The notes: a model not told the origin generated them from the letters alone. Positions 21,901-59,238 are shown, counted from the stretch's first letter. The stretch is DNA of 64,000 nt from Lingula anatina (GCA_051362555.1 CM120642.1:19096001-19160000), one strand, 5' to 3'. Numbers and translations are program-made.

Positions 21901-24900
21901 CGTTCGCCATGCGGAAGCTACCTGAGAAATATTAAGTGCGCATGCTCATCAGTTAAACTCGTGGTGAAGAAAGCATGGCGGCTGAAGGCGATCGAAGGAA
22001 AAAAGCTCTTCTGTTCTATTATCTTTGAAAACAGAGACGAAAAAGGAATAATTTGGCCCGTAGAGCAGCAATGAATCGACTATCTACGGAGATAATGTCA
22101 CCAGCGATATTCACGGAAATATTAATGTTCGGAGCCGAGATTTAATTACTGTACCCCGCAGGGACGACGTGTGGGGAGGCGTGTGAGAGGCGGAGAGACT
22201 ATTAAAAGATTAGGCGGTTTTCTTTCATGTACGTCCGCCATTTTTAGGTCACCGGCTTTGTAAAGCCTGGCTTAATTCGTTGAGAATGCGCTCTATGGAA
22301 TGTTGACAGAGTCTGTGAACGTATATACTCAATTTCATATTAATGGCAAGTTTCCCTCAAAGTCCCTGACCAGCATAGGGGAAGGTTTCCCACCAATCTG
22401 GGTTAGTTATACAGTGTTAGTTTAAATATAAAGGTTCCTTGAAGCACTAAGACATGTTGAATCTTTGGGTCCTACCAGTCTTGACCGATACAAGTATCTA
22501 GGTCCAGTAGAAAATTATGTCTAGTCATTCCATTATTAGGGACCAGCGACAATATTTAGAGACACCATTTTGAATTTGCAGTCAGTCTGGTAAAAAGACC
22601 TTCGGTTTGACAAATTTTTCGTAACTGTCTGTCCAAATGGCTGGCTGATTTTTAGAGTTTTATCTGGTCTGAAGTGGAACACTTGATCCTCCAAAATGAC
22701 CACCATAATTTAGAGATGACACCAATCTCATCAGTGTTGGCCCAATTATATGAGGAAATGTATTTCAAGAAAAAAATGTTCAGTAGGAGAAACATACTGC
22801 TTACATACAGATTCAGAGCTTAAAATAAGGAAGGATGTCCTGAATCCTGAATGAACATTTTCATGATGCATATGTATTTAAGTACAAATATCACAGGTAT
22901 ACTGTATATACATATACTAGTATGGAACTGCTTCTATGGGTCATTCAATCAATGGAAATGTCAAGGTAAAATTAACTGATTGATCCCTACCATCTGCTTA
23001 ATTAACAATGACAAATACAGGGGTGGGGACCGAAAGAGACACAGGAAAATGCTCTTAATGATGACAAACGAGTCATGGATGATGGGACACGCCCAATCTG
23101 CTTTCATGTCAGTACAGTTTTAGATTGGAAATTAGGTTATGTTCTCTGATAAAGCAATATATATATATCTAGTTTAAATTAGAACTATAAAGTGACACAA
23201 ATTGCAGTCTTATGGTAGATGTGTGTATGTGTGTGTGTGTGTGTTTGGGGGGAAGCAAATTTTAGGTTTAGCAAAATTTATTTTTTCTTCACAAAACTGT
23301 TAGGGCTGTAGGCTGCAGAAAGAGGAGGGCTGATGGAGGTATGATAAAGTTCAGTTTTTGGGTGCATCTGAATCTCTATGGAGGGGACCTCCTCATGTAC
23401 TTTTATAAAGAAAAAAAACTTTATCAAAGAAGCATCTAGGCTCCACCTCACAGAGATGGAGATTAAGAAAAATAATTTTTGGTGAATATTTATAGCAAGG
23501 TTTCAATCTTTACCTTTCTCAAACTACATCAGCAATATTGTCTCATTCAGCTAGTGTCTGGACAAGTATCACAACTGGTACGTATACAAATAACCTGATT
23601 GCATGTAATCATTCCTTCGACAGCTGCACTCTGTGATTGCACATCAGATATTATGAATCGCTTTCAGCATAAGGTTTGTGTCACATTTTGCAATAAAGCG
23701 TTTGCTAACAAGATTCCTCGGATAGTACAGTGTCATGTTCTAAAAAATCGTCTGTACAACAGCGTATATTGAAAAAAAATTTAGAAAGTGGCAAGAAGAA
23801 CAAAAAAAAAAAAAAAAGAAAAAAAGAAAAGAAAGAAAGAAAAAAAATAATAAAATTAATGTACTCCAGACTACCTTTACTCTTGTACATGTACTATGAA
23901 CTACTCAATAAAAAACATGCCCTTCCATGCAACAAAAGGGCAGAATGAAAAGAGAATAAAACAAGAAAATAAAACAAATATGTAACAGAAACAAGAATTA
24001 AATATTTACATGACTGCAGAAAATTTATCAATTGATCTTTATCAAGAAATGGACACTTGTAATCCACACTCTTGTCAACAGGACGTAAAAAACATCTCTC
24101 CACTTGCAACTGAATCACTTCCTGACAACCAACATAACTGGCTGAGTGATATAGCTGTATACACATGATTAATGGGCTACATTAATGTGATTGCACACTA
24201 CAAGATCCACTAGCAACATACAGTGGCTTAAGAGCATGGAAATCCTGTTCTATATCAAATAACAGAACACTGCTGTGGAACCTTATTGTATATATGTCAT
24301 TAATTTCATACACTGCAGAAAAGAAGGTAATGTACCCAAAGACCTGCACTTCACTTGACTTCAACCTTCAGGATATTTATTACACTGAAGGACTTTCAGT
24401 TCAGAATGGAACATTTTTCCCATTGTATGTGCAGTTTTTTTTTATTCTTATTGATCTCACTGGTGAAAATGCATAGGCAGCAAATAAAGATAGTGATAGA
24501 TTACAGATAATTAGAATTGCATTTTTAATAAAAAAATCTCACACATTTTTCAACATTTAAAGGCAGCAATCTTAATTTGACAAGTAATAATTTAGTTTTT
24601 TCCTTAGACTCATGTGAGATCAGATTAAAAAATAATAAGTGATGAAAGTGGTTGAGTTGGGTAAAAGACATAACTGCAAACAAACTGGGACCATCAAAAT
24701 CAAACAAAAATTAGCATATGGCATAAAACTGAAATTATATAGTAAACATTTCGTTCTAAATATTTTTAAGAAAGAAAAATTGTTACTCATACACCTTCCT
24801 CACCTTGGCTGCTTCCTCGTGCGTTATGTCAGAAAAGTTCACTTGGTTAGCTGACAATATCTGATCACCTGTACACAAGCCTTGTCTGTCAGCCAATGAC

Positions 24901-25523
24901 CCTGGCTCTACCTGTGAGACGTAAATCCCAATCCCATGCTCAGCACCACCACGAATACTCAACCCCCAGCCTTCATGACTAGAATTTTTCTTCAACGTCA
25001 CATGGTTAACAACATTGTTCTCACTTTTTTCCACGTCAAAGGTATTGTTGACCTGTCTGTATATTTTACTCTTCGGTGGTTCGCTTGGCCTTCTGATAAT
25101 CTCTGAGCTTTTTGTTCGCCTCATGCTGAAGGGTTGCTGTGATGGAACGCTGGAAGTTCTACGTAGGCCGCGTTGGTTCAAGTAGGGTGTGTTTAAAGGT
25201 ATTGATGTGATAGGATCATTGTACATATACTGGTCAAAGGCATCTTGGTCAGAATGTGGCATAACTTTCCGTAACAGAGGTATAATTTGTCTTTTTACAG
25301 AGTTGTCAAAGATGAGCTTTAGCGCTTGCACAAAGTCATACACATTACGTTTAGAATGATATACATTTAGTGCTTCGATGAAATCACTTCGGTCCTCCTC
25401 TTCCAAGAGAGTGTTGACGGCTTCTTGAAGACGCCTCACATTCACAGAAAGAGTCCTCTGCGGGGGAATTCTCACCGGTGATGGAGACCTAAGATAGGTC
25501 ATTTCATACTCGATGGATGACAT
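4522..25523 (-). CDS. WHRN: Whirlin (DFNB31/dyschronic) ortholog: HHD1-PDZ1-PDZ2-HHD2-low-complexity-PDZ3, about 1271 aa
   Basis: Phase-consistent exons 5'->3': 25523-24804, 18408-18199, 17557-17432, 17086-16878, 16562-16490, 16214-16002 (GC donor), 15619-15524, 14421-14320, 13632-13558, 13263-13177, 12874-12734, 12345-12224, 11505-11470, 9587-8447, 6084-6031, 5596-5504, 5048-4899, 4689-4522 (TAA). Motifs: LSVNVRRLQEA..YHSKRNVYDFVQ (HHD1), GLSIRGGAEHGIGIYVS (PDZ1), YTWVDPRGRPVSPP, LGLMIRGGSEFGLGIY (PDZ2), LFELLNTQAK/FSLMSEVR (HHD2), TLGIAIEGGANTRQPLPRIITIQPGG (PDZ3). Small exons in the low-complexity middle are less certain. Confidence 0.92.
6338..8356. mobile_element. Foldback-type (MULE-like) non-autonomous DNA element with inverted arms of about 184-bp tandem units
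   Basis: Termini CCGGTGTACCATGAAAATCTGACTCCC and GGGAGTCAGATTTTCATGTTACACCGG. Left arm has 5 units (starts about 6431, 6616, 6799, 6983, 7167); right arm has about 3 inverted units (7717-8270); unique spacer about 7350-7717. Flanks TACAGAATG/TTTAAAATG match 6/9 (possible decayed 9-bp TSD). No transposase. Confidence 0.85.
10079..10253. mobile_element. Short MITE with CAGGGGCAGAT TIRs and 5-bp TSD (hAT-like)
   Basis: CAGGGGCAGAT...ATCTGCCCCTG flanked on both sides by AATGT (10074-78, 10254-58). Confidence 0.75.
15169..15414. mobile_element. Palindromic MITE (PIF/Harbinger-like) with central poly-C tract
   Basis: Arms TACTAGCAGGACTGATCT...GCTAAATTGCATT and AATGCAATTTAGC...AGGTCAGTCCTGCTAGTA. 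Flanks TTA/TAA. Core shared with 33257-33471. Confidence 0.7.
15880..15975. repeat. (TAAA)n/(TTAA)n microsatellite
   Basis: Seen directly. Confidence 0.9.
21749..22293. mobile_element. Young MITE with about 150-bp near-perfect TIRs and 3-bp TSD (PIF/Harbinger-like)
   Basis: GAGCGCATTCTCAACGAATTAAGCCAGGCTTTACAAAGCCGG... is mirrored at 22130-22293. TAT flanks both ends. CpGs are retained within a CpG-poor intron. Confidence 0.9.
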
Positions 25524-25847
25524 GATTATTGCAATATGTTCCCAGAAGAAGCAACCTGGCTACCTTTTACACTCTACATATTTCACACCTGAAAATAAAA
25601 AAAAGTTGTTTCAGTTACAGGTTAAAAAGAAATCAAAACAACACAATTATGTGTTTTCAATAATTCGTATATAAAGCTAAAAAGTTTAACTACATATGGG
25701 TCGTCGACGAGAACTTTGAAAAGCTGTCTTTCATCTTAGCTCAAGTAAGTCGTCGAGTTTTTACATACATTTTGTTAGCGTTAGCATCGAGAGCCTCACA
25801 ATTAACCTTTAATTCATTAAAAAAACTTGCAATGTTTACACACGTAC

Positions 25848-27620: not shown

Positions 27621-28682
27621 TTAAGCCTAAATATCATTTGGATACAGTGTCATGATACAAAGACAATTTTGCATCAAATAAGACGTAAAAGCTAACTACA
27701 CTTCTTTCAAATAATCTGTGTAAAATAAAGCCAGTTTGAATACAAATTACCGTTGTATGTTTGGGACATATTTACATTTACAGTAGATCCACTTTATTCT
27801 CAACATTTGAATTAAAGGCATTAGTTAGATTTTAAAAATATCGAAATTCGATACGATGCACAATCGAGACTCGCCTACGAGACGAAAGCACGCAAGCCAA
27901 TAGGATAAATCTTAAAAGCATAATGGCGAGAGAAGCTAAAATTAATCTAGAAAAATAGTTTGGATCCAGTGCTTTGATTGAATGGATGAAAACAGTGAAT
28001 TTGACACCGAATATAATTGAAAGAGCTATGAACGTGCAACTGTTCGTTTTTAAGGAGCAGAGTCTGTAAAGAAATCTGCGCTAATAACCTAATATATAGG
28101 ATTCGTACACGTTGCAACACAGCTCAACTAACGCAATGAAGATATAATTAAGGTATAAGGGGACCATTCACAGTTAATTTTGTCGACCGATCTTATGCGC
28201 ACCAAGTCCACCGGGACTCTTGCTGAATGCCAAGAGATGAAGTAATGTTGCTATTCAAAGACAGAAGAACAACTTTCATTAAAACGGAAAACTGAATCTA
28301 TTATGGAATATTTTTTCATGTTGGTTGCAATTCAAAAAGGAAGAAAACACTTTCATTAAAATAGAAAACTCAATTTATTATAAAATATTTTTTCACATTG
28401 ATGAATCGAACATCTACTGCCTGGTGTAAAAAGAGATAATACAAGGTATGCTCACTTAAAAGAATCTTGCCAACATTACAGTGCTCAGAATGCATAGTTA
28501 CTGTCTTATACACAATTACTAATATAACGATAGAATGACAGTTTACAATGTAAATAATTTGATGGGAGTCTGTCCAAAACTATGCGAAGAATACCCGTAA
28601 ACGCGTAGATTTGACAACTGCAAATGTGCATTTCAAACATGGATCAAACAGCTAAAAATCACAATATATTGTAAAATGTGGA

Positions 28683-30707
28683 TCAAAACGATGCACAATA
28701 ACCAGAATAACAGGCCGACACTCCAGGCAGTTTATAAATGAAGTAACTTCCACAATTCTTGACCAGTATGGAGGAGGGATGTGCGGTTGGGATCCAGCTC
28801 CTGCAGCAGCCATATCTCCACGTGGCACACACACGGACTCGCGCCTCTGTACCCTTGACAGCAGGTACTGTCCCGTTCAAGTAAAGCGTCACCCCTGTCC
28901 CGCAGCCCTTGTACGGCGCACACTGTGAGTGGAGATTATTTAAAAAAAACATGAAAACGCAAAGACTAAGAGAAAAAGAAATACAAAAATACAATAACGT
29001 TGCTTGTTAAAAATGATACAGTAAAAATGAATGATCGTGACATACATTTACTGGAGTACAAATGCGCACATGACTTCTTGAGTACGAAAGTCAACGGTGT
29101 TTCAGAATTAAGCATACTTTAATTATTTGTTCATCTTTCGTTTATGGGAAACAGGACCGGTGTAACATGACAGAGTCCCCCATAATAGACTAAGAGAGTC
29201 CGCTTCCCATTCATTTGTACAGATAAGCCCTTGCCCTAATTTTTGACCCACTTGGGTCAGGCTATAACCATAACCATTATAACTATATGACTTTCTGTTA
29301 CACGGACTCAGTTTCGTTGCACTGGAGCAAAAGTTTTGATTGTAGGCCTAATACATGAAACTCTGGGCGAGACAGTATCTAAGAAGAACTAGTTTAGCAG
29401 CGGGCAAACAATGTCTACTCCATTGTAAAATGCCCCTCCCCTCCCCCAGCACAAAACAATCACACGCCTTCCTTCATACCCCCTTTCCCCCTACAATTTA
29501 ACGATATTTAACTGTAATTACTGGAAACTATAACCTTCACTATTAGCATGCCAATTCCAACAATTGAAGAAAGTTTCCAGCAAAAATTTAATTAAAAAAT
29601 TAAGAATATAAATAATACTAATAATAAAAATTATGGTAATCCCCAAACCCTATCCGCCCCAATCCACCAACAACCCTCACCTTATCGGCTAGTTTCGTTC
29701 CAGCTGGCGGCATGAAACGGTACCACTGGACGGCCCAAGCAGTATTGTAAGGGTTACTCGACCCATCGCAGTGTGGTGGGGAAAATTCCGTCTGTGTGTA
29801 TATATTCCTCCAGTGATCAGCCAGTACCGTGTAATTGTTGCATGGATCAACTAAATATAGAAAGGAACCCGACTTATTGAGGTTAATCAGGCCAATTGTA
29901 ACGGGGAATATTCAATTAAAACTGGATGGTAGGTCTTTAAAAACTTCCTCTTCAAAATAATAGGTACGTGCTAATTTTTCTGCAAAAAATAATTTTCTTA
30001 TGTTGAAGACTATTGTGTTTTGATAAGTAACCTTTAAATCTATGTGTGTGTTTCAACTCTCCAAGCGTTTTTTCTTACCTGTATCAGTCTCACTTTCGTT
30101 CCTGGAAGAGTTCGTAGCAACAGTGATTAAAGCTATCATTAAAGCAACATTAACCAACAGCGACACTACCAACGTCAATATCAACCCTCGACGGTGTAGC
30201 GTACAACGCTGACTCTTGTCGTGAAGTTCTCTGTCGGTGCTATCTTGAAGGTCCTTGGGTCTTTTGGTTTTACCTTTGCCATCATTGACAAGGTTTAAGT
30301 GAACGTACCCATCGTCTGATTGGCTATTGATTGGGCCAGATGTTGGCGTCAACGTAGAGTAAATTGCCTCACCATGGGGGAATGCTCCAGACGTTGGTTC
30401 CATATAGATTGGACTGTTTGGTATTGGTTCTGGCTCTGCTCGACTGAAGTTATGGCCTTAAAGAGACATGGAAATACCATAAACATAGTGACAAATTAGA
30501 CGTGAAACAAGAATTTCTTGCTTCTTTTCGTATCCAAAAGCGAGTGTTAACTTTTGCATGGATGACGCACCAGTCGTTTAACTATAACATAATAAAGAGA
30601 TGTGTTTCTTTCAACATTTATTTTATGGTTTTTTTCTTTTGTAACTTACTTTGGCCGCAATTTTCTGTATCATCACAGGGGACTTCATAGAGTGTTGAAT
30701 CTGCCAT
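28683..30707 (-). CDS. Uncharacterised type II transmembrane protein (about 281 aa) with Tyr-motif cytoplasmic tail and C-terminal UMOD/GP2/OIT3-like D8C (D10C) domain
   Basis: Exons 30707-30650, 30456-30079, 29850-29681 and 28922-28683 (TGA), all GT-AG and in phase; probable UTR exon about 30863-30911. Protein: MADSTLYEVP...PIYMEP...AIYSTL...SDDGYVHL...RRGLILTLVVSLLVNVALMIALITVAT (TM)...DPCNNYTVLADHWR...CD...WYRFMPPAG.KL...CAPYKGCGT...YLNGTVP...VCATW..GCC...ILVKNCGSYFIYKL....CYSGYCASF. Ten Cys in the GP2/UMOD pattern. Confidence 0.85.
29157..29305. mobile_element. Short element sharing termini with the 6338-8356 foldback
   Basis: CCGGTGTAACATGA at the left end and TGTTACACGG at the right end. 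No clear TSD. Confidence 0.45.
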
Positions 30708-30797
30708 GCTCACTTGCCTTGTTTATATAAAAAAATAATTAGTCATTTTAACAAAATTGATTATACTTTCCTTTTGATCTAACAAAAAATATCGCCA

Positions 30798-30839
30798 TAG
30801 AGAGAGAGAGAGAGAGAGAGATCTAGAGAGAGAGAGAGA
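30798..30839. repeat. (GA)n microsatellite
   Basis: Seen directly. Confidence 0.9.
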
Positions 30840-31369
30840 TTGATTGCAGTCATCCTGCTTACCTTTATCGTATTAAATATATGTTCGTGTCATTCCGTAT
30901 TCGTGATAAAACTACAACAGTTGTACATGTACGTGTAGACCTGTCGGTGATTGACGTTGATATCCTTCACTGCAGAGTTCTATATTTGAACAATACACTA
31001 GGGGGGTTAACCCAGACCTTGTCAACACTTCCAGTCAGTGGTAGTAGAAAAAAAAAAACACATTGTAGGCTAAAAGTAGTCACAAAAGGTTGATCTTGCT
31101 AAGCTAACAGTGAGGTGTGTTTTGTTAGGGCGTTTTGTTCATTATTTGGTGTGCCATAATCAATAGAAGTTTCAAGGTCATAAAAGAGGAAAAATATCAA
31201 TGCTAGTTTTTTCTTTCTTCTATTTCTGAAGGGGTTGCTGCTTCAATAATTTGATTTCCTTCCGCATTTTTTCGTTCAATACATACCGATTTTAGAACAA
31301 GTATACTTTTTCATAAGATTTACTTCATAGTGGTTATCTAATAAGTAACAGTATTTAAGTGCAGCTGTA

Positions 31370-34306: not shown

Positions 34307-37300
34307 TCAATCAAATTTCTCCCATGCTGGTTTCTCCTGCTGAGCACTTTTGGTAGCTGATGCACTCTTGATGTCTAACAAGTCTGCAAATGGATCCTTT
34401 TCCAGTTTTTCTCCAGGTTTCTGTGGCTGGAGCACAGTGCTACTGAAACTACTGTGTCCCAAGCTACTACTGCTACTACTGTATGGCCTAGGTCCATCTA
34501 CTCCTACCACAGAGTAAGGCCTTTGAATTCCCCCTGTTGCACTGCCAGTATTCAATCCTCTATAAGGCTGAGGGGCATAAACAAATGTTTTTCTATTGCC
34601 CACTGTGGAGAAATCCTTTCCAAATGCTGATGAAGAGGCTCCTGATGTCATAGGTCTGGTCTGGCGTGGAGCACCTTGGCCTGGAGAATACCCCATATTA
34701 GAATAATTATGCATCATAGACGAAGCAAAGGGAGTTTGACTTGACAGAGGGACAGGTTGCCTCATGCTGTACGGTAACCCAACCTGCTGCTGCTGGCTTA
34801 GGGCCAAACTACCAACTGAAGACATAGCAGGCCCAGCATGCATTGTACCAATGGCTGAACTTCCTGTTACATTACCACTAAGGTTAGTGTGATACCCAGC
34901 ATGCATTGCACCAACCTGGATACTACTACTTCCTGTCTGCCCACCAATGTTAGTTTTATTACCAGCATGCATGGGAGTGGGCCCCATATAATTTATGCTA
35001 CCCCAAGATGAGGACGAACCTGGTAATACTGGCGTATTAAAAGCAGTCTGAGGACCAAAAGCACTGCTGGTTGAGGATGGCATGGCCTGGAAGTTGAAAC
35101 TTGTACTGGTGGCACTGGTACTCTGGAATAGATCTTGGTCAGCATTAGGACTTGGTGTGGGACTGAGGCTGGGGGCTGGGCTGGGCTGTAATGTAAGGGT
35201 CCCCATGGTCGCTGGAACTGGCTGACCTTGAAGCTGTTGGTCGAGACTGGACTTGGTCTCAAGCTGAGTGGACAACACAGGAAAAGCAGAAGGCTGCTGC
35301 TGGGGTTGCTGAAGCAAATTAGGAGCAGAATGGACATTAGGAAGGCCCGGCTTATTACCTGCTTTATCAAAATTCAGGTTCCATTCTTTAAGTAGGTTCG
35401 TGTCGTCTTCTGTCAGCTTTGTGCTAACTCTGGTACCTTGACCTTCAACCTCACTTTGAGTCTGACCTTCACCTTGATTGGCACTACTCTGTGGAAGCTC
35501 TGAGGGGCCCCCTACTGGACTGAACTGGTTGGCTAGTAAGGGATCAAATAAATCATGAACGTTCACTGTCACCGGTTTTTGTGCTGTGGAACCTTGCACA
35601 TGCCCTGGACTAGTAGGATCATCGCTGTCACTTCTGCTAACACTCCGAGGCTTTTCGTAGAGAGATTTCCTGAAAGCAGGTGCCCTATTCAGGTTGATTT
35701 TGGTGTCCTTCGGATAGGCTGGTTTCAGACTGATCTTCTGAGCCTGATAATCATCTAAATCACTGTCACTTGTGTCAGCATGTCGCAAGCCATCAAATCT
35801 TTTTGAGAGTTCGTCAGGGAGTGGACTCGTCTGTTGTAAGCGTTCGTGATCACCAACATTCAAAGCAGGTCCAGCCTGGCTTGAACTAATTTCACCTTCA
35901 ACAGATTCTAGTTTAATTAAGTTATAGTCCACTGATTTGTCCCCATCACCTTGTTGAGCTCGTGATAAGCTGGGACTACTGTCACATGATACATTACTGC
36001 TATTGGTTCCCTCGTCTTTCTTTTTCCGTCTCCTTCGTGGTGCTGGTATGGGCGTGGTCTCGGCTGATCCTGTCTCTTCAGGAGTCCGCTTCTTTTTCGT
36101 AAGTTCCACAGACCTCTGCAATGTAAGGATCAATATGTAGTAAGAATCATTCCTGTTTTTTTTTCAAAACGAACAAATAATATATATATATATTTATTTA
36201 ATTTTATCTATACTAAATAATCTGTCTTTACACATGTTAAATCTATATATTTTTGCAATCTTTTATGTTAATAACAATATTATAAAGTAGGTGATATATC
36301 ACTGTTGGCTTTAATATGCTTATTATAAAACAGTACTTGACCGTCATAAATTGCAACAGGTGTCTTTACTGCTAATTTAAATGTAATGAGGTTTGTTAGC
36401 TACGAGTACGTGTGTGTGTGTGTGTGTGTGTGTGCGCGTGTGCGTACCTGAAGGATATAGACATGTTTACATATGGATATGATCATGTACGTATGTGGGT
36501 GTCTTAGTATGTGTGTATATGCATGTTTAGATTTATGGGTGTATATATTTTTTTCTTATACTGTATTTGTTGGTATGACAGAAATAAACTTTAAAAAATT
36601 TATCTGAACCACATAATTATATCATCTAACACCGCATTTCAATAAGTGAGACAACCCACAGGTAAGTGTGGTTTTACCAATCCCTTTGAATTTTGACACG
36701 AATGTAAATATTTCATAAAAGTTCATGAGACAGTTTATATATATCACAACACAACCCTCAAGCAAAAAGCTTCGCTCCACTCAATATAATAACCTTTGAT
36801 GAGATATAAATGCAAAAAACCAAATTGGCTATCCAATAATAAGCACAATGGGTCACAAATGTCATTAATAAGAAATAATTGCTTTCCATGGGCATGAATG
36901 TTTGGGTTGGCTTTCAATATGAAACATGTAAGTGGCATCCCTCAAAGATGCTACGATAACAAAGTTCGGTGAAATACCTTGTTTCTTGTCTCTTGTATAA
37001 AGATAGCAAAATAGTCCATCTTTTTTCATAATGTCAAGGCATAATTTTTCAACACTTTAACAAAAGGCCTTGATCATGTGACTGGTCAAACAGGGCTGAA
37101 AGGTCATGCCTCACAAGTAAAAATGTTTTGTCTTTATTATAATAGTAAGATTTACATTTTACCAATAACAATGAAACAAGGCAATTATTACATTCTTATC
37201 ATTGAGAACAAATGGAAAGCTGCACAGAGTGGTACACATCACACGAAATCTCACAATGAAAGCAAATTCAAAGCATCAAAATGAAAGTTTTGGTCAATCC

Positions 37301-57233: not shown

Positions 57234-59238
57234 TTAAATTTCTGGTTTCTTGTATTTACACTGAACCCAGACTCGGTACATCTTAATTTGGCGCCCCCTA
57301 TTGACCTGCAATCTCCTGTCTATCACATTCTGTACCTCTTCTAAACCAGCCTCGGTGAACAATTTCCGCAAGTCGTCCTGAGTAAAGAAATAAACCAGTG
57401 TTCCATCACCCCTGACATAAAAGTTTTCCCCAAGACAATGACCTTTCTTGAAACGCAGTTGTGCCAGATCGTATCTGCCATAATCCCTGAATAATATCAT
57501 TCCACCTGGTTTAAGGTGGGACACCAGACGCTGAATGGCATCCTTCATTTTATCTGGGTGAATAGCCGACAAAACAAATATCATTATGATTACGTCTAGA
57601 CTGTTTTCTGGGAATGGGAGCGGAGAAGAATCGTCTGTGAGATCATAGGTGAAAGCATGACATCTAGATGTGTCATAATCACGATGCTCTTTCACAATGT
57701 CAATGGCGGTGCTGGAGAAGTCGCAGCAATACATGAACAGCTCAGGATCATTATTTGCCTGAAGTACAGGGAACACGGTGTTACCAACCCCACACCCTAT
57801 TTCCAGAAATCGTTTCTTAGCACCATTTCCAGGATAATCTAGGAAAATATCGCTAGTCTGACAGGGACTTTTGAGAAAGTTTTCAGAAGCACTTCTTGTT
57901 GAATTACTTATATCATCACCTGCACGAACAGAATTACTTTCCTTTGCATGATCAACAGTTGATATCACATTTTCAGAATTTGGGTCAAGGTGAAGGTCAG
58001 ACATTTGAGATTTCTCCTCTGGATGCTCAACAGTGGAGGTTCTGCTTGATTTGCTTCCACCTTCTAAATTGTCATCAACAGAGGCCTCAACATCATGGGA
58101 TAGGAGATCCCTCTTGGATTTCTGCCTAGGTGTGCTGACAGTGCTGACATCTGGTGTGGGATTTGTAGTATCTGCCTGGAGATACACATTATGTAGTGAT
58201 ATAATTATGTGTAAACTGCAACAGTACAAGAATAACCACACTTAAATGCATCAAACTAGGCATAAGCTTGAGATGTTTCATATATTATGCAAGACCAAAG
58301 TAAAAAGACTACATTCCTTTACCTCCCTGCATAGTTACCCCTTAAAATCATTACCTCTCCTCACCATAATGATGTAGGAAAGTAAACTAATACAGGGACA
58401 TAACCAACATAAACTACACATTTCATAAGCATCAAACTTTATATTTATGATTATTAATTAATATTACATTATATAGTATTCCAAATTAGCAAATTACAGC
58501 ACTAAAACCTTATGTGCTTTCATCCACTGAAAATGATATCTTAAAACTATGGGAAATTACCTTCACTGGCATTCCACTTGGCCACTCCTTGGGTGCCAGT
58601 TCTGGAAACTCTGTGAACAACCAATGACGATCCTTAAAAAATCTGTTTTGGTGAATGCCATAGAAACCATTCCAGTATTCATTGGCCTCTGAGTTGTACT
58701 TGACTGAAATAAAAAAAAATCAAATTATTTTCACTCATCATTGGTTTGAGCAAGAAAAAAGTATGATGGACTGTAAGTTAGTTTGCCTCTCTTTCGCTGT
58801 GAAATCGAAATTACTTACTAGTACCAGTTACGAACTCTAAATGATGTTAAGTTCAAATGGTAACTGTGGATTATTTGATTCATACAATTGGTGATCATTT
58901 CTGTGCAGGTTTCATATGTGGTATGTTTGACACTAGTACATCAAACTTTTATAATTTTCTAGTCATAAGTGTAAAATATTAAAAACCTTTACTTTTAACT
59001 TCTTTATTTTCATTTGCTAGCTAATATCTTAAAACGCACAGAGTTATACTCTATGCAGTATAGACTTGCCTCTCCTTTCATCTTCCACAAGCTGCGCTGA
59101 ATTTTCAGCAACTTTTCTTCTGGCTTCGTCCTCTTGCTCATCATCCCACACGACATTGTCCCAGGCATTATGCTCAAAAACGTTCTTTGCATCTGTAAGG
59201 TAGCGGTTGCCAAACTGGGGGCGGGTATTCTCAGACAT
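57234..59238 (-). CDS. METTL2: tRNA N3-methylcytidine methyltransferase METTL2 (Trm140 family), about 417 aa
   Basis: Exons 59238-59070 (GC donor), 58703-58561 and 58175-57234 (TAA); probable UTR exon with donor at 60251. Motifs: RPQFGNRYL...[87 protein letters not shown]. Confidence 0.93.

What the first reader, a model, noticed from the sequence alone, without database searches (positions are those of the whole stretch)
28683..30707. Candidate new innate-immune receptor: Dectin/CLEC-2-like hemITAM tail fused to a GP2/uromodulin decoy module
Seen: no signal peptide and an N-terminal tail of about 100 aa with four tyrosine motifs (LYEVP, IYMEP, IYSTL, SDDGYVHL). These are followed by basic RR, a single TM helix, a short stalk and a complete 10-Cys D8C/D10C domain with no ZP module. 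Established: Dectin-1 and CLEC-2 are type II receptors that signal to Syk through an acidic DEDGYxxL hemITAM. YxxP motifs bind Crk/Nck/Abl-type SH2 domains. In GP2 and uromodulin this Cys-rich decoy module is GPI-anchored or secreted and traps bacterial FimH via high-mannose N-glycans. Inference: a module known as a passive decoy appears wired to a phosphotyrosine signalling tail, giving a possible invertebrate pattern-recognition receptor. I do not know this architecture as described.
Basis: partly seen in the sequence, partly recalled or inferred. Interest (0 to 1): 0.8.

Follow-up and report, generated by a model that had tools for sequence, protein, structure and literature searches.

The report
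Brachiopod receptor with uromodulin-type head
This is a real, spliced lamp-shell (Lingula) gene whose protein is predicted to cross the membrane once, with a uromodulin/GP2-type domain outside and a tyrosine-motif tail inside, so it likely works as a signalling receptor; database gene models put the same domain on other receptor types in sponges, corals and fish, so it is likely a general sensing module and not only a bacterial decoy.

Summary
Four coding exons (28683-30707, minus strand) are joined in RNA reads. They give a 281-aa protein that differs at one residue from Lingula anatina RefSeq XP_013420102.1, an automatic 'OIT3' name. It has a 111-aa tail with four Tyr motifs, one TM helix and a complete 10-Cys D10C domain (GP2 7p6r, Z 17.8, rmsd 1.7).

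Two corrections. It is D10C alone: GP2's beta-hairpin is missing, so it is not the whole decoy module, although the N65-equivalent sequon is kept. SDDGYVHL is hemITAM-like, with two of three acids, not canonical.

No orthologue was found, so motif conservation is untested. Among the best 150 of 1433 homologues only this protein has a long Tyr-motif tail, a TM and D10C. But D10C also sits on gene models of a coral receptor tyrosine kinase, six adhesion-GPCR-type proteins, fish type I Tyr-tail receptors and sponge/amphioxus type II scavenger-like proteins. 'Passive decoy wired to signalling' is therefore recurrent, and I found no paper describing it.

Best reading: a lineage-specific, exon-shuffled phosphotyrosine receptor. 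Ligand, immune role and Syk coupling are unshown. New variant of a known kind; interest 0.5.

The parts
30863..30990 (-). 5' untranslated exon (upstream end approximate)
   Evidence: X6 read depth 6.1 and 2.3 in bins 30825-31026; joint 30726/30863 in 3 reads
30650..30726 (-). Exon with start codon (ATG 30707-30705, A at -3 and G at +4, in-frame stop upstream); codons 1-19; followed by a phase-1 intron
30678..30692 (-). Tyr7 motif LYEVP (YxxP); one X6 allele adds Tyr11 and Glu14 beside it
30079..30456 (-). Exon 2: rest of cytoplasmic tail, TM helix and stalk in one phase 1-1 cassette
   Evidence: spliced at both ends in reads; phases
30395..30409 (-). Tyr37 motif IYMEP (YxxP)
30350..30364 (-). 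Tyr52 motif IYSTL (YxxL; not an ITIM, Ala at -2)
30296..30319 (-). Tyr70 hemITAM-like motif SDDGYVHL (two of three acids; also fits the YxxPhi sorting pattern)
30113..30181 (-). Predicted single transmembrane signal-anchor, residues about 112-134, after HRR
   Evidence: hydropathy and charge; helix with block pLDDT 89-93
29681..29850 (-). Exon 3: first half of D10C (Cys1, Cys2), N151 sequon at 29836-29828, extended Cys2-WYR loop
28683..28922 (-). Exon 4 coding part: second half of D10C (Cys3-Cys10), N218 sequon (GP2 N122 equivalent), stop codon
28686..29850 (-). D10C (UMOD/GP2/OIT3-like D8C) domain, residues 146-281, split by a phase-0 intron
   Evidence: Pfam PF23283 above cut-off; Foldseek E 5e-12; VIA Z 17.8
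28401..28682 (-). 3' untranslated region (lower end approximate; a polyadenylation-signal hexamer begins at 28379)
   Evidence: X6 depth 9-12 down to bin 28401, 0 below

Best explanation
This is a spliced, sample-specifically expressed Lingula gene for a predicted type II single-pass surface protein whose outer D10C domain likely binds an extracellular ligand, and whose clustering would let tyrosine kinases phosphorylate the four tail tyrosines and recruit SH2 proteins. The two distal YxxP sites would likely recruit Crk/Nck/Abl-type adaptors (actin, engulfment) and the two YxxL sites, chiefly the acidic Tyr70, a Syk/Shark-family kinase across a receptor dimer, as in Dectin-1/CLEC-2. It likely arose in the brachiopod line when a tail+TM cassette exon was joined, at a phase-1 intron, to a D10C copy from a Lingula expansion. 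Shown: gene, splicing, motifs, fold, exon phases. Predicted: topology. Inferred: ligand binding, phosphorylation, partners, origin by shuffling. An immune (microbe- or damage-sensing) role is the likeliest context but unshown, about 50% given this mechanism.
For: Splicing and expression; depth per 1000 M letters is 12.4 in X6 against 0.69 or less in the other 7 laid runs. Type II anatomy and upstream stop. Tyr motifs non-random; the [DE][DE]xYxx[LI] pattern occurs 2 times in 85,458 residues of the 149 homologues. Among the X6 differences listed none changes Tyr7, 37, 52 or 70 while 4 other tail codons vary (one run, depth about 6-16). True D10C fold. D10C is an ectodomain of gene models that clearly signal: coral kinase P0067, 6 of 150 with GPS + 7tm_2, fish type I tails with YxxI/L. 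It also takes the place of the ligand-binding head on collagen-stalk type II proteins of sponges (P0083, P0112). Tree: this domain groups with three other Lingula domains (95/90), not with other membrane-wired ones. hemITAM-Syk signalling is described in another lophotrochozoan, the oyster (PMC13027682 passages).
Against: No orthologue or tail homologue found, so there is no conservation test. 1283 of 1433 hits were not seen and no Lingula genome was available, so Syk/Shark in Lingula was not checked. The triacidic rule is not met and CLEC-2 needs its DED for phosphorylation (PMC3576117; single-residue mutants were inconclusive there). YxxL spacing is 14 residues, too long for an ITAM (spacing limit recalled). 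A proline-rich neighbour ORF has 8 of 15 Tyr with a +3 hydrophobic/Pro residue. No glycan-independent ligand of D10C appears in the papers read. The stalk is only about 12 residues and has no cysteine. D10C also occurs in VWDE and OIT3, which have non-immune roles. The other architectures are automatic gene models that I did not verify with reads.
Confidence: 0.45

Rival explanations
1. Glycan-bait pattern-recognition receptor: D10C only presents a high-mannose glycan at N151, a microbial lectin such as a FimH-like adhesin grabs it, and the clustering fires the hemITAM-like Tyr70 through Syk.
For: N151 aligns exactly with GP2 N65, whose loss impairs FimH binding (PMC8930769). DGYxxL matches Dectin-1/CLEC-2 (shuffle p 0.004). 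GP2 is cited as an M-cell uptake receptor for FimH+ bacteria (reference title only).
Against: The beta-hairpin proposed to protect the high-mannose glycan is absent. The sequon is in 98 of 351 homologous domains, common but not general. The strict hemITAM is not met. There are no infection data.
Confidence: 0.2
2. Endocytic or sorting receptor: the unphosphorylated YxxL motifs (Tyr52, Tyr70 with Gly at -1) bind AP-2/AP-3 adaptors and the protein cycles to take up a ligand, like a scavenger receptor, with little signalling.
For: YSTL and GYVHL fit the YxxPhi sorting pattern (pattern recalled). D10C caps class-A-scavenger-like type II proteins in sponges and amphioxus.
Against: It does not explain the two YxxP motifs with I/L at -1 or the acids before Tyr70. 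The four scavenger-like homologues have 9-20 aa tails with no YxxPhi/P match, so a 111-aa four-Tyr tail is more than uptake needs.
Confidence: 0.2
3. Non-immune adhesion, matrix or developmental receptor: D10C contacts a host protein or matrix component and the tail links to Crk/Nck/Abl for cell shape or migration.
For: D10C occurs in VWDE (regeneration) and OIT3/LZP and on adhesion-GPCR models. Expression is strongly sample-specific, which fits a tissue or stage role.
Against: The acidic GYxxL is typical of Syk-coupled immune receptors. X6 alleles show clustered replacements in the ectodomain (A156T/D157S, P179S/Y180N), the second pair in an insertion that only 6-7% of 390 domains have. With 4 replaced and 6 silent codons this is not a test of selection.
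Confidence: 0.1
4. A recent chance chimera with little or no function.
For: Singleton cluster, no paralogue in the window, near-zero reads in most runs.
Against: Intact frame in two individuals or alleles, clean splicing, all ten cysteines kept, mostly silent changes in exon 4 (4 of 4 listed) and non-random tail motifs.
Confidence: 0.05

Closest known systems
Dectin-1 (CLEC7A) and CLEC-2 (CLEC1B), hemITAM type II receptors (PMC3576117)
   Same: Predicted type II topology, N-terminal tail with acid-G-Y-x-x-L, no enzyme domain, single C-terminal recognition domain.
   Different: Head is D10C, not a C-type lectin domain; first acid replaced by Ser; tail much longer, with three further Tyr motifs (two YxxP); stalk about 12 residues; Syk coupling and dimers unshown.
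Oyster CgCLec-HTM / CgCLec-TM1 (PMC13027682 passages) and Botryllus FcoR (PMC12582321 passages)
   Same: Invertebrate receptors with hemITAM or hemITAM-like motifs; FcoR3/4B show the same substitution of the first acid (ADDVYAIL, PDDVYAIL) and several Tyr motifs per tail.
   Different: Their ectodomains are C-type lectin or Ig domains, and FcoR are type I.
GP2 and uromodulin decoy module (PDB 7p6r, 7pfp, 7q3n; PMC8930769)
   Same: D10C fold with all ten cysteines; sequons at the GP2 N65 and N122 positions.
   Different: No beta-hairpin, no EGF or ZP module, no signal peptide or GPI anchor; opposite orientation; a cytoplasmic tail; a longer Cys2-WYR loop (13 residues against a mode of 7).
Uncharacterised D10C membrane proteins in databases: Stylophora kinase XP_022781145, fish adhesion GPCRs (e.g. 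XP_036413141), Danio aesculapii XP_056312297, sponge XP_062500677 and Oscarella P0112, Branchiostoma XP_078576489
   Same: D10C as the ectodomain of a membrane protein; some type II, some with Tyr-motif tails or a kinase.
   Different: None of the 149 other proteins seen combines type II orientation with a long multi-Tyr tail; their domains do not group with this one in the tree.
RefSeq XP_013420102.1 'oncoprotein-induced transcript 3 protein' [Lingula anatina]
   Same: The same gene model, 280 of 281 residues.
   Different: The name is an automatic transfer from the D10C match; vertebrate OIT3 has EGF and ZP modules, which this lacks.

Membership tests
D10C / D8C_UMOD domain (PF23283) | Profile score above the curated cut-off | tested here: met
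   28.7 bits against 27
D10C / D8C_UMOD domain (PF23283) | Ten cysteines and the GP2 D10C fold | tested here: met
   Cys 149-278; Foldseek E 5e-12 to 9e-9 for the UMOD/GP2 rows; Z 17.8, rmsd 1.7, 122 aligned
GP2/UMOD decoy module | Disulfide-bonded beta-hairpin before D10C | tested here: not met
   No Cys between the TM and C149; structural match starts at GP2 residue 58; definition from PMC8930769
GP2/UMOD decoy module | Sequon at GP2 N65 or UMOD N275 position | tested here: met
   N151 aligns with GP2 N65; found in 98 of 351 homologous domains
GP2/UMOD decoy module | High-mannose glycan that binds FimH | not testable with these tools
   needs glycoproteomics and binding assays
GP2/UMOD/OIT3 proteins | Signal peptide, ZP module, GPI anchor or secretion | tested here: not met
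   no N-terminal hydrophobic stretch, stop three residues after Cys10, no ZP hit
hemITAM receptors (Dectin-1/CLEC-2 type) | [E/D][E/D][E/D]xYxxL in the cytoplasmic tail | tested here: not met
   0 strict matches; SDDGYVHL has two acids, 'hemITAM-like' in the usage of PMC12582321
hemITAM receptors (Dectin-1/CLEC-2 type) | Type II single-pass topology | tested here: met
   predicted from hydropathy, charge, upstream stop and C-terminal cysteines and sequons; no dedicated topology predictor was available
hemITAM receptors (Dectin-1/CLEC-2 type) | C-type lectin-like ectodomain | tested here: not met
   the ectodomain is D10C
hemITAM receptors (Dectin-1/CLEC-2 type) | Phosphorylation and Syk recruitment | not testable with these tools
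   needs experiment; Lingula Syk not checked because no genome is held
ITIM receptors | I/L/VxYxxI/L/V | tested here: not met
   Tyr52 has Ala and Tyr70 Asp at -2; consensus
Class A scavenger receptor layout | Coiled-coil and collagen stalk between TM and head | tested here: not met
   stalk about 12 residues, no Gly-X-Y run

The most novel reading that the evidence does not exclude
D10C is an unrecognised, ancient ligand-recognition domain of animals, comparable to SRCR, C-type lectin or fibrinogen heads. It has been wired independently to receptor tyrosine kinases (coral), adhesion GPCRs and Tyr-tail type I receptors (fish), collagenous scavenger-type receptors (sponge) and, here, a Dectin-like Syk-activating type II receptor in a brachiopod. 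The glycan-decoy role in GP2 and uromodulin would be a late specialisation, and this 281-aa protein would be the minimal model for finding the D10C ligand and its signalling.
Probability: 0.3. Interest if true: 0.75.

Novelty: new variant of a known kind. Interest (0 to 1): 0.5.

Why it matters
D10C was structurally defined only in 2022 and, in the papers I could read, is known as a scaffold for a decoy glycan in human GP2 and uromodulin, where it carries most kidney-disease mutations. A minimal natural receptor made of a tyrosine tail, one helix and one D10C gives a direct reporter assay for what the domain senses. The survey suggests a wider, apparently undescribed set of D10C receptors from sponges to fish. 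For invertebrate immunity it would add a new head to the known hemITAM-Syk logic. The importance is limited because the gene is so far a singleton in one species, the signalling logic itself is known, and neither ligand nor immune role is shown.

Tried and rejected
No whole genome was held, so no paralogue, Syk or tail-cassette search in Lingula was possible; within the window tblastn found only the four exons.

Homologue searches: the tail+TM exon returned only the protein itself (1 hit among 393 candidates); the whole protein gave 2 among 438; the alignment profile gave 8 among 2027; metagenome contigs gave 92 pattern matches and no relative; the alignment had no stretch conserved enough for that scan.

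ESM Atlas: whole protein, first hit a 295-aa mostly rotifer D8C cluster at 0.89, under the 0.9 bar and with no sequences given, so a lead only; tail alone, no usable hit by features.

Homodimer prediction of residues 100-281: no answer, score 0.09 against a mark of 0.32, alignment not used; not counted as evidence either way.

Rejected: cleaved signal peptide from a downstream start (only Met38, weak context and still 74 residues before the TM, and Met126 inside the TM); mis-joined exons; canonical ITAM (14-residue spacing); ITIM; complete decoy module; positive selection (too few variants; positions 156/157 are not unusually variable in the family). P0055, P0071, P0133 and P0144 also have a hydrophobic stretch 24 or more residues in, before the first D10C, but were not counted as the same architecture: an adhesion-GPCR fragment, two without Tyr motifs, and one with a single match in a doubtful N-terminal extension.

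Papers not held: Gerdol et al. 2018 on Lingula immunity (it may mention this gene) and Fuller et al. 2007. 'CLec-HTM' + 'Syk' gave 0 papers. No supplements were read; the alignments in the supplements of PMC8930769 could list invertebrate D10C proteins.

Full report
1. Observation. The minus strand carries four coding exons, 30707-30650, 30456-30079, 29850-29681 and 28922-28683, with GT..AG introns and an open frame of 281 codons. A search with exon 2 returned one protein, RefSeq XP_013420102.1 of the brachiopod Lingula anatina, named 'oncoprotein-induced transcript 3 protein'. It matches the window's product except at residue 11. Raw RNA reads were laid from 8 of 9 listed runs, 6-30% of each read. 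Run X6 shows all three coding introns removed (9, 14 and 22 reads), X5 and X2 add 1 and 2 reads, and the four runs list no joint. Exonic reads have their first mate on the plus strand, which in the usual stranded library means a minus-strand transcript. Exonic depth per 1000 million letters is 12.4 in X6, 0.15-0.69 in five runs and 0 in two. Expression is thus strongly sample-specific; the tissue is unknown. Short reads link neighbouring exons only; no read spans the whole transcript.

2. Topology (predicted). The ATG has an in-frame stop just upstream in both the genomic and the UTR-spliced reading and a strong context. The N-terminus is hydrophilic. The only strong hydrophobic stretch peaks at 112-130 (KD19 2.82), with HRR before it, net charge +2 before and -3 after. 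The ten domain cysteines and sequons 135, 139, 151 and 218 are C-terminal. The only other methionines before the domain are Met38 and Met126, neither of which turns the helix into a signal peptide. AlphaFold2 gives a low-confidence tail, a long helix 94-135 and a confident domain. No dedicated topology predictor was available.

3. Ectodomain. Pfam D8C_UMOD scores above cut-off. GP2 and uromodulin are the only significant PDB hits by sequence and by fold (7p6r, Z 17.8, rmsd 1.7, 122 residues, model 144-281 on GP2 58-180). PMC8930769 (first part of the main text and passages read) defines the decoy module as a disulfide-bonded beta-hairpin plus D10C, shows that the N65 glycan matters for FimH binding, and proposes that the module's architecture keeps the glycan high-mannose. 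The Lingula protein has N151 at the N65 position and N218 at N122, but no hairpin. Among 390 domains in the 150 best homologues, 351 have Cys1; 98 of these have the N65-type sequon and 27 a hairpin-like Cys pair upstream. So a hairpin-less D10C is the norm in this set and the sequon is common without being general. The Cys2-WYR loop is 13 residues against a mode of 7.

4. Tail. All four tyrosines of the window allele have L/I/V/M/P at +3 (shuffle p 0.0025; 0.005 from the pooled rate 1257 of 4755 in homologues) and I/L/G at -1 (0 of 200,000 shuffles, but that class was chosen after looking). A control tempers this: the proline-rich ORF at 34310-36163 has 8 of 15 tyrosines with such a +3 residue; three other window ORFs have 1 of 12, 3 of 9 and 1 of 12. 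[DE][DE]xYxx[LI] has shuffle p 0.0095. The strict hemITAM [E/D][E/D][E/D]xYxxL given in PMC12582321 (passages) is not matched; SDDGYVHL has the same first-acid substitution that paper calls hemITAM-like. PMC3576117 (abstract and passages) shows that removing all three acids of CLEC-2 abolishes signalling, while single mutants were inconclusive, so two acids neither pass nor fail functionally. Neither YxxL is an ITIM, and their 14-residue spacing is longer than an ITAM (limit recalled). That YxxP binds Crk/Nck/Abl-type SH2 domains and that YxxPhi binds clathrin adaptors is recalled knowledge. A weak internal repeat follows Tyr37 and Tyr52 (shuffle p 0.03). X6 alleles change four tail codons (C11Y, T14E, D78N, L89V) and none of the four motif tyrosines; in D10C four codons are replaced, in two adjacent pairs, and six are silent.

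5. Relatives. HMMER found 1433 representatives at E up to 0.001; the best 150 were examined, a set biased to multi-domain proteins. Only this protein has a long multi-Tyr tail, a TM and D10C. Of the 150, 14 have ZP, 6 GPS + 7tm_2, 1 a tyrosine kinase, 5 collagen repeats (3 behind an N-terminal anchor), 1 an anchor plus a fibrinogen domain, and 10 a single C-terminal TM with a tail of 20 or more residues, 7 of these with a YxxPhi/P match, counting the kinase and one ZP protein. Names were looked up for 30 of the 150: kinase in the coral Stylophora; adhesion GPCRs in Cyprinus, Prochilodus, Colossoma and Cirrhinus; Tyr-tail type I proteins in Danio aesculapii, Pygocentrus and Acnodon; collagen-stalk type II proteins in the sponges Oscarella and Corticium; the fibrinogen fusion in Branchiostoma. 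These are unverified gene models. In a tree of 36 domains from 27 hand-picked proteins, the domain groups with three other Lingula domains (95/90), apart from the sponge, amphioxus, coral and fish receptor domains; a fifth Lingula domain falls elsewhere and no one-clade test was run. Exon 2 (tail, TM, stalk) is bounded by phase-1 introns and D10C starts right at the second. That fits assembly by exon shuffling in the brachiopod line, which is an inference.

6. Mechanism. The best reading (0.45) is a phosphotyrosine-signalling surface receptor with D10C as a ligand-binding head. Clustering would lead to tail phosphorylation, adaptor binding at the YxxP sites and Syk/Shark-family binding at the YxxL sites. 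The reason to prefer a binding head over a glycan bait is comparative: the hairpin is missing, most homologous domains lack the sequon, and D10C repeatedly takes the position of a recognition domain in receptors. Rivals are a glycan-bait immune receptor (0.2), an endocytic receptor (0.2), a non-immune adhesion or developmental receptor (0.1) and a functionless chimera (0.05). Nothing here shows ligand, phosphorylation, partner or immune role.

7. Comparison and novelty. It works, if at all, like Dectin-1/CLEC-2 but is not a member: no lectin domain and no strict hemITAM. It contains a true D10C but is not a GP2/uromodulin/OIT3 protein. Invertebrate hemITAM-Syk receptors are known in oyster (PMC13027682, a review, passages) and hemITAM motifs in Botryllus. 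Ten full-text searches (listings and abstract starts seen) showed no paper on D8C/D10C in a signalling receptor or on this gene. Passages of PMC12212870 and PMC10140915 added nothing on it. Subscription papers, including the 2018 Lingula immune survey, and all supplements were not seen. Earlier AI notes from this scan (unchecked, leads only) report a reused ITAM tail+TM exon in mussels, hypervariable D10C families in sharks and D10C on bacterial lipoproteins; they fit the reading but are not evidence.

8. Verdict. Real gene, correctly described anatomy, an architecture I could not find described. New variant of a known kind; interest 0.5. The wider lead, D10C as a repeatedly recruited recognition domain, has probability 0.3 and interest 0.75 if true.

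Noticed in passing
window 30727-30862: The 5' UTR intron seen in 3 X6 reads reads GT..AT on the minus strand of the window's letters: a non-canonical acceptor or an allele difference.
   Followed up: no
window about 29190-29310 (intron 3): A dispersed repeat that draws partly matching reads from both strands in all 8 laid runs.
   Followed up: no
window 29825-29817 and 29752-29747: Clustered allelic differences in D10C: five substitutions within nine bases in 9-10 of 18-19 X6 reads, and a second cluster in an insertion loop found in only 6-7% of homologous domains.
   Followed up: partly
P0067 (Stylophora pistillata XP_022781145): Gene model of a receptor tyrosine kinase whose ectodomain is two D10C domains; I found no description.
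   Followed up: partly
P0016, P0017, P0029, P0044, P0055, P0117: Adhesion-GPCR-type models (the four looked up are from fish) with 2-6 D10C domains beside GPS + 7tm_2; related fish type I proteins end in acidic Tyr motifs (P0012, P0020, P0049).
   Followed up: partly
P0083, P0112, P0128, P0116: Type II anchor + collagen or long stalk + D10C in two sponges and an unnamed source, and anchor + D10C + fibrinogen domain in amphioxus: a class A scavenger receptor layout with a D10C head.
   Followed up: partly
P0002 and P0056 (XP_013415746.1, XP_013415745.1): The two closest relatives are Lingula models with consecutive accessions, a Thr/Ser-rich stalk and no anchor; they may be N-terminally incomplete and could hide similar tails.
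   Followed up: no
window 24783-25559, 34307-36163, 57234-58241 (all minus strand): Neighbours: a harmonin-N + PDZ exon (whirlin-like), a 618-codon low-complexity terminal ORF with no Pfam hit (DENND1-like ending, recalled), and a single-ORF SAM methyltransferase (METTL2-like, recalled). No immune cluster or paralogue in the window.
   Followed up: partly
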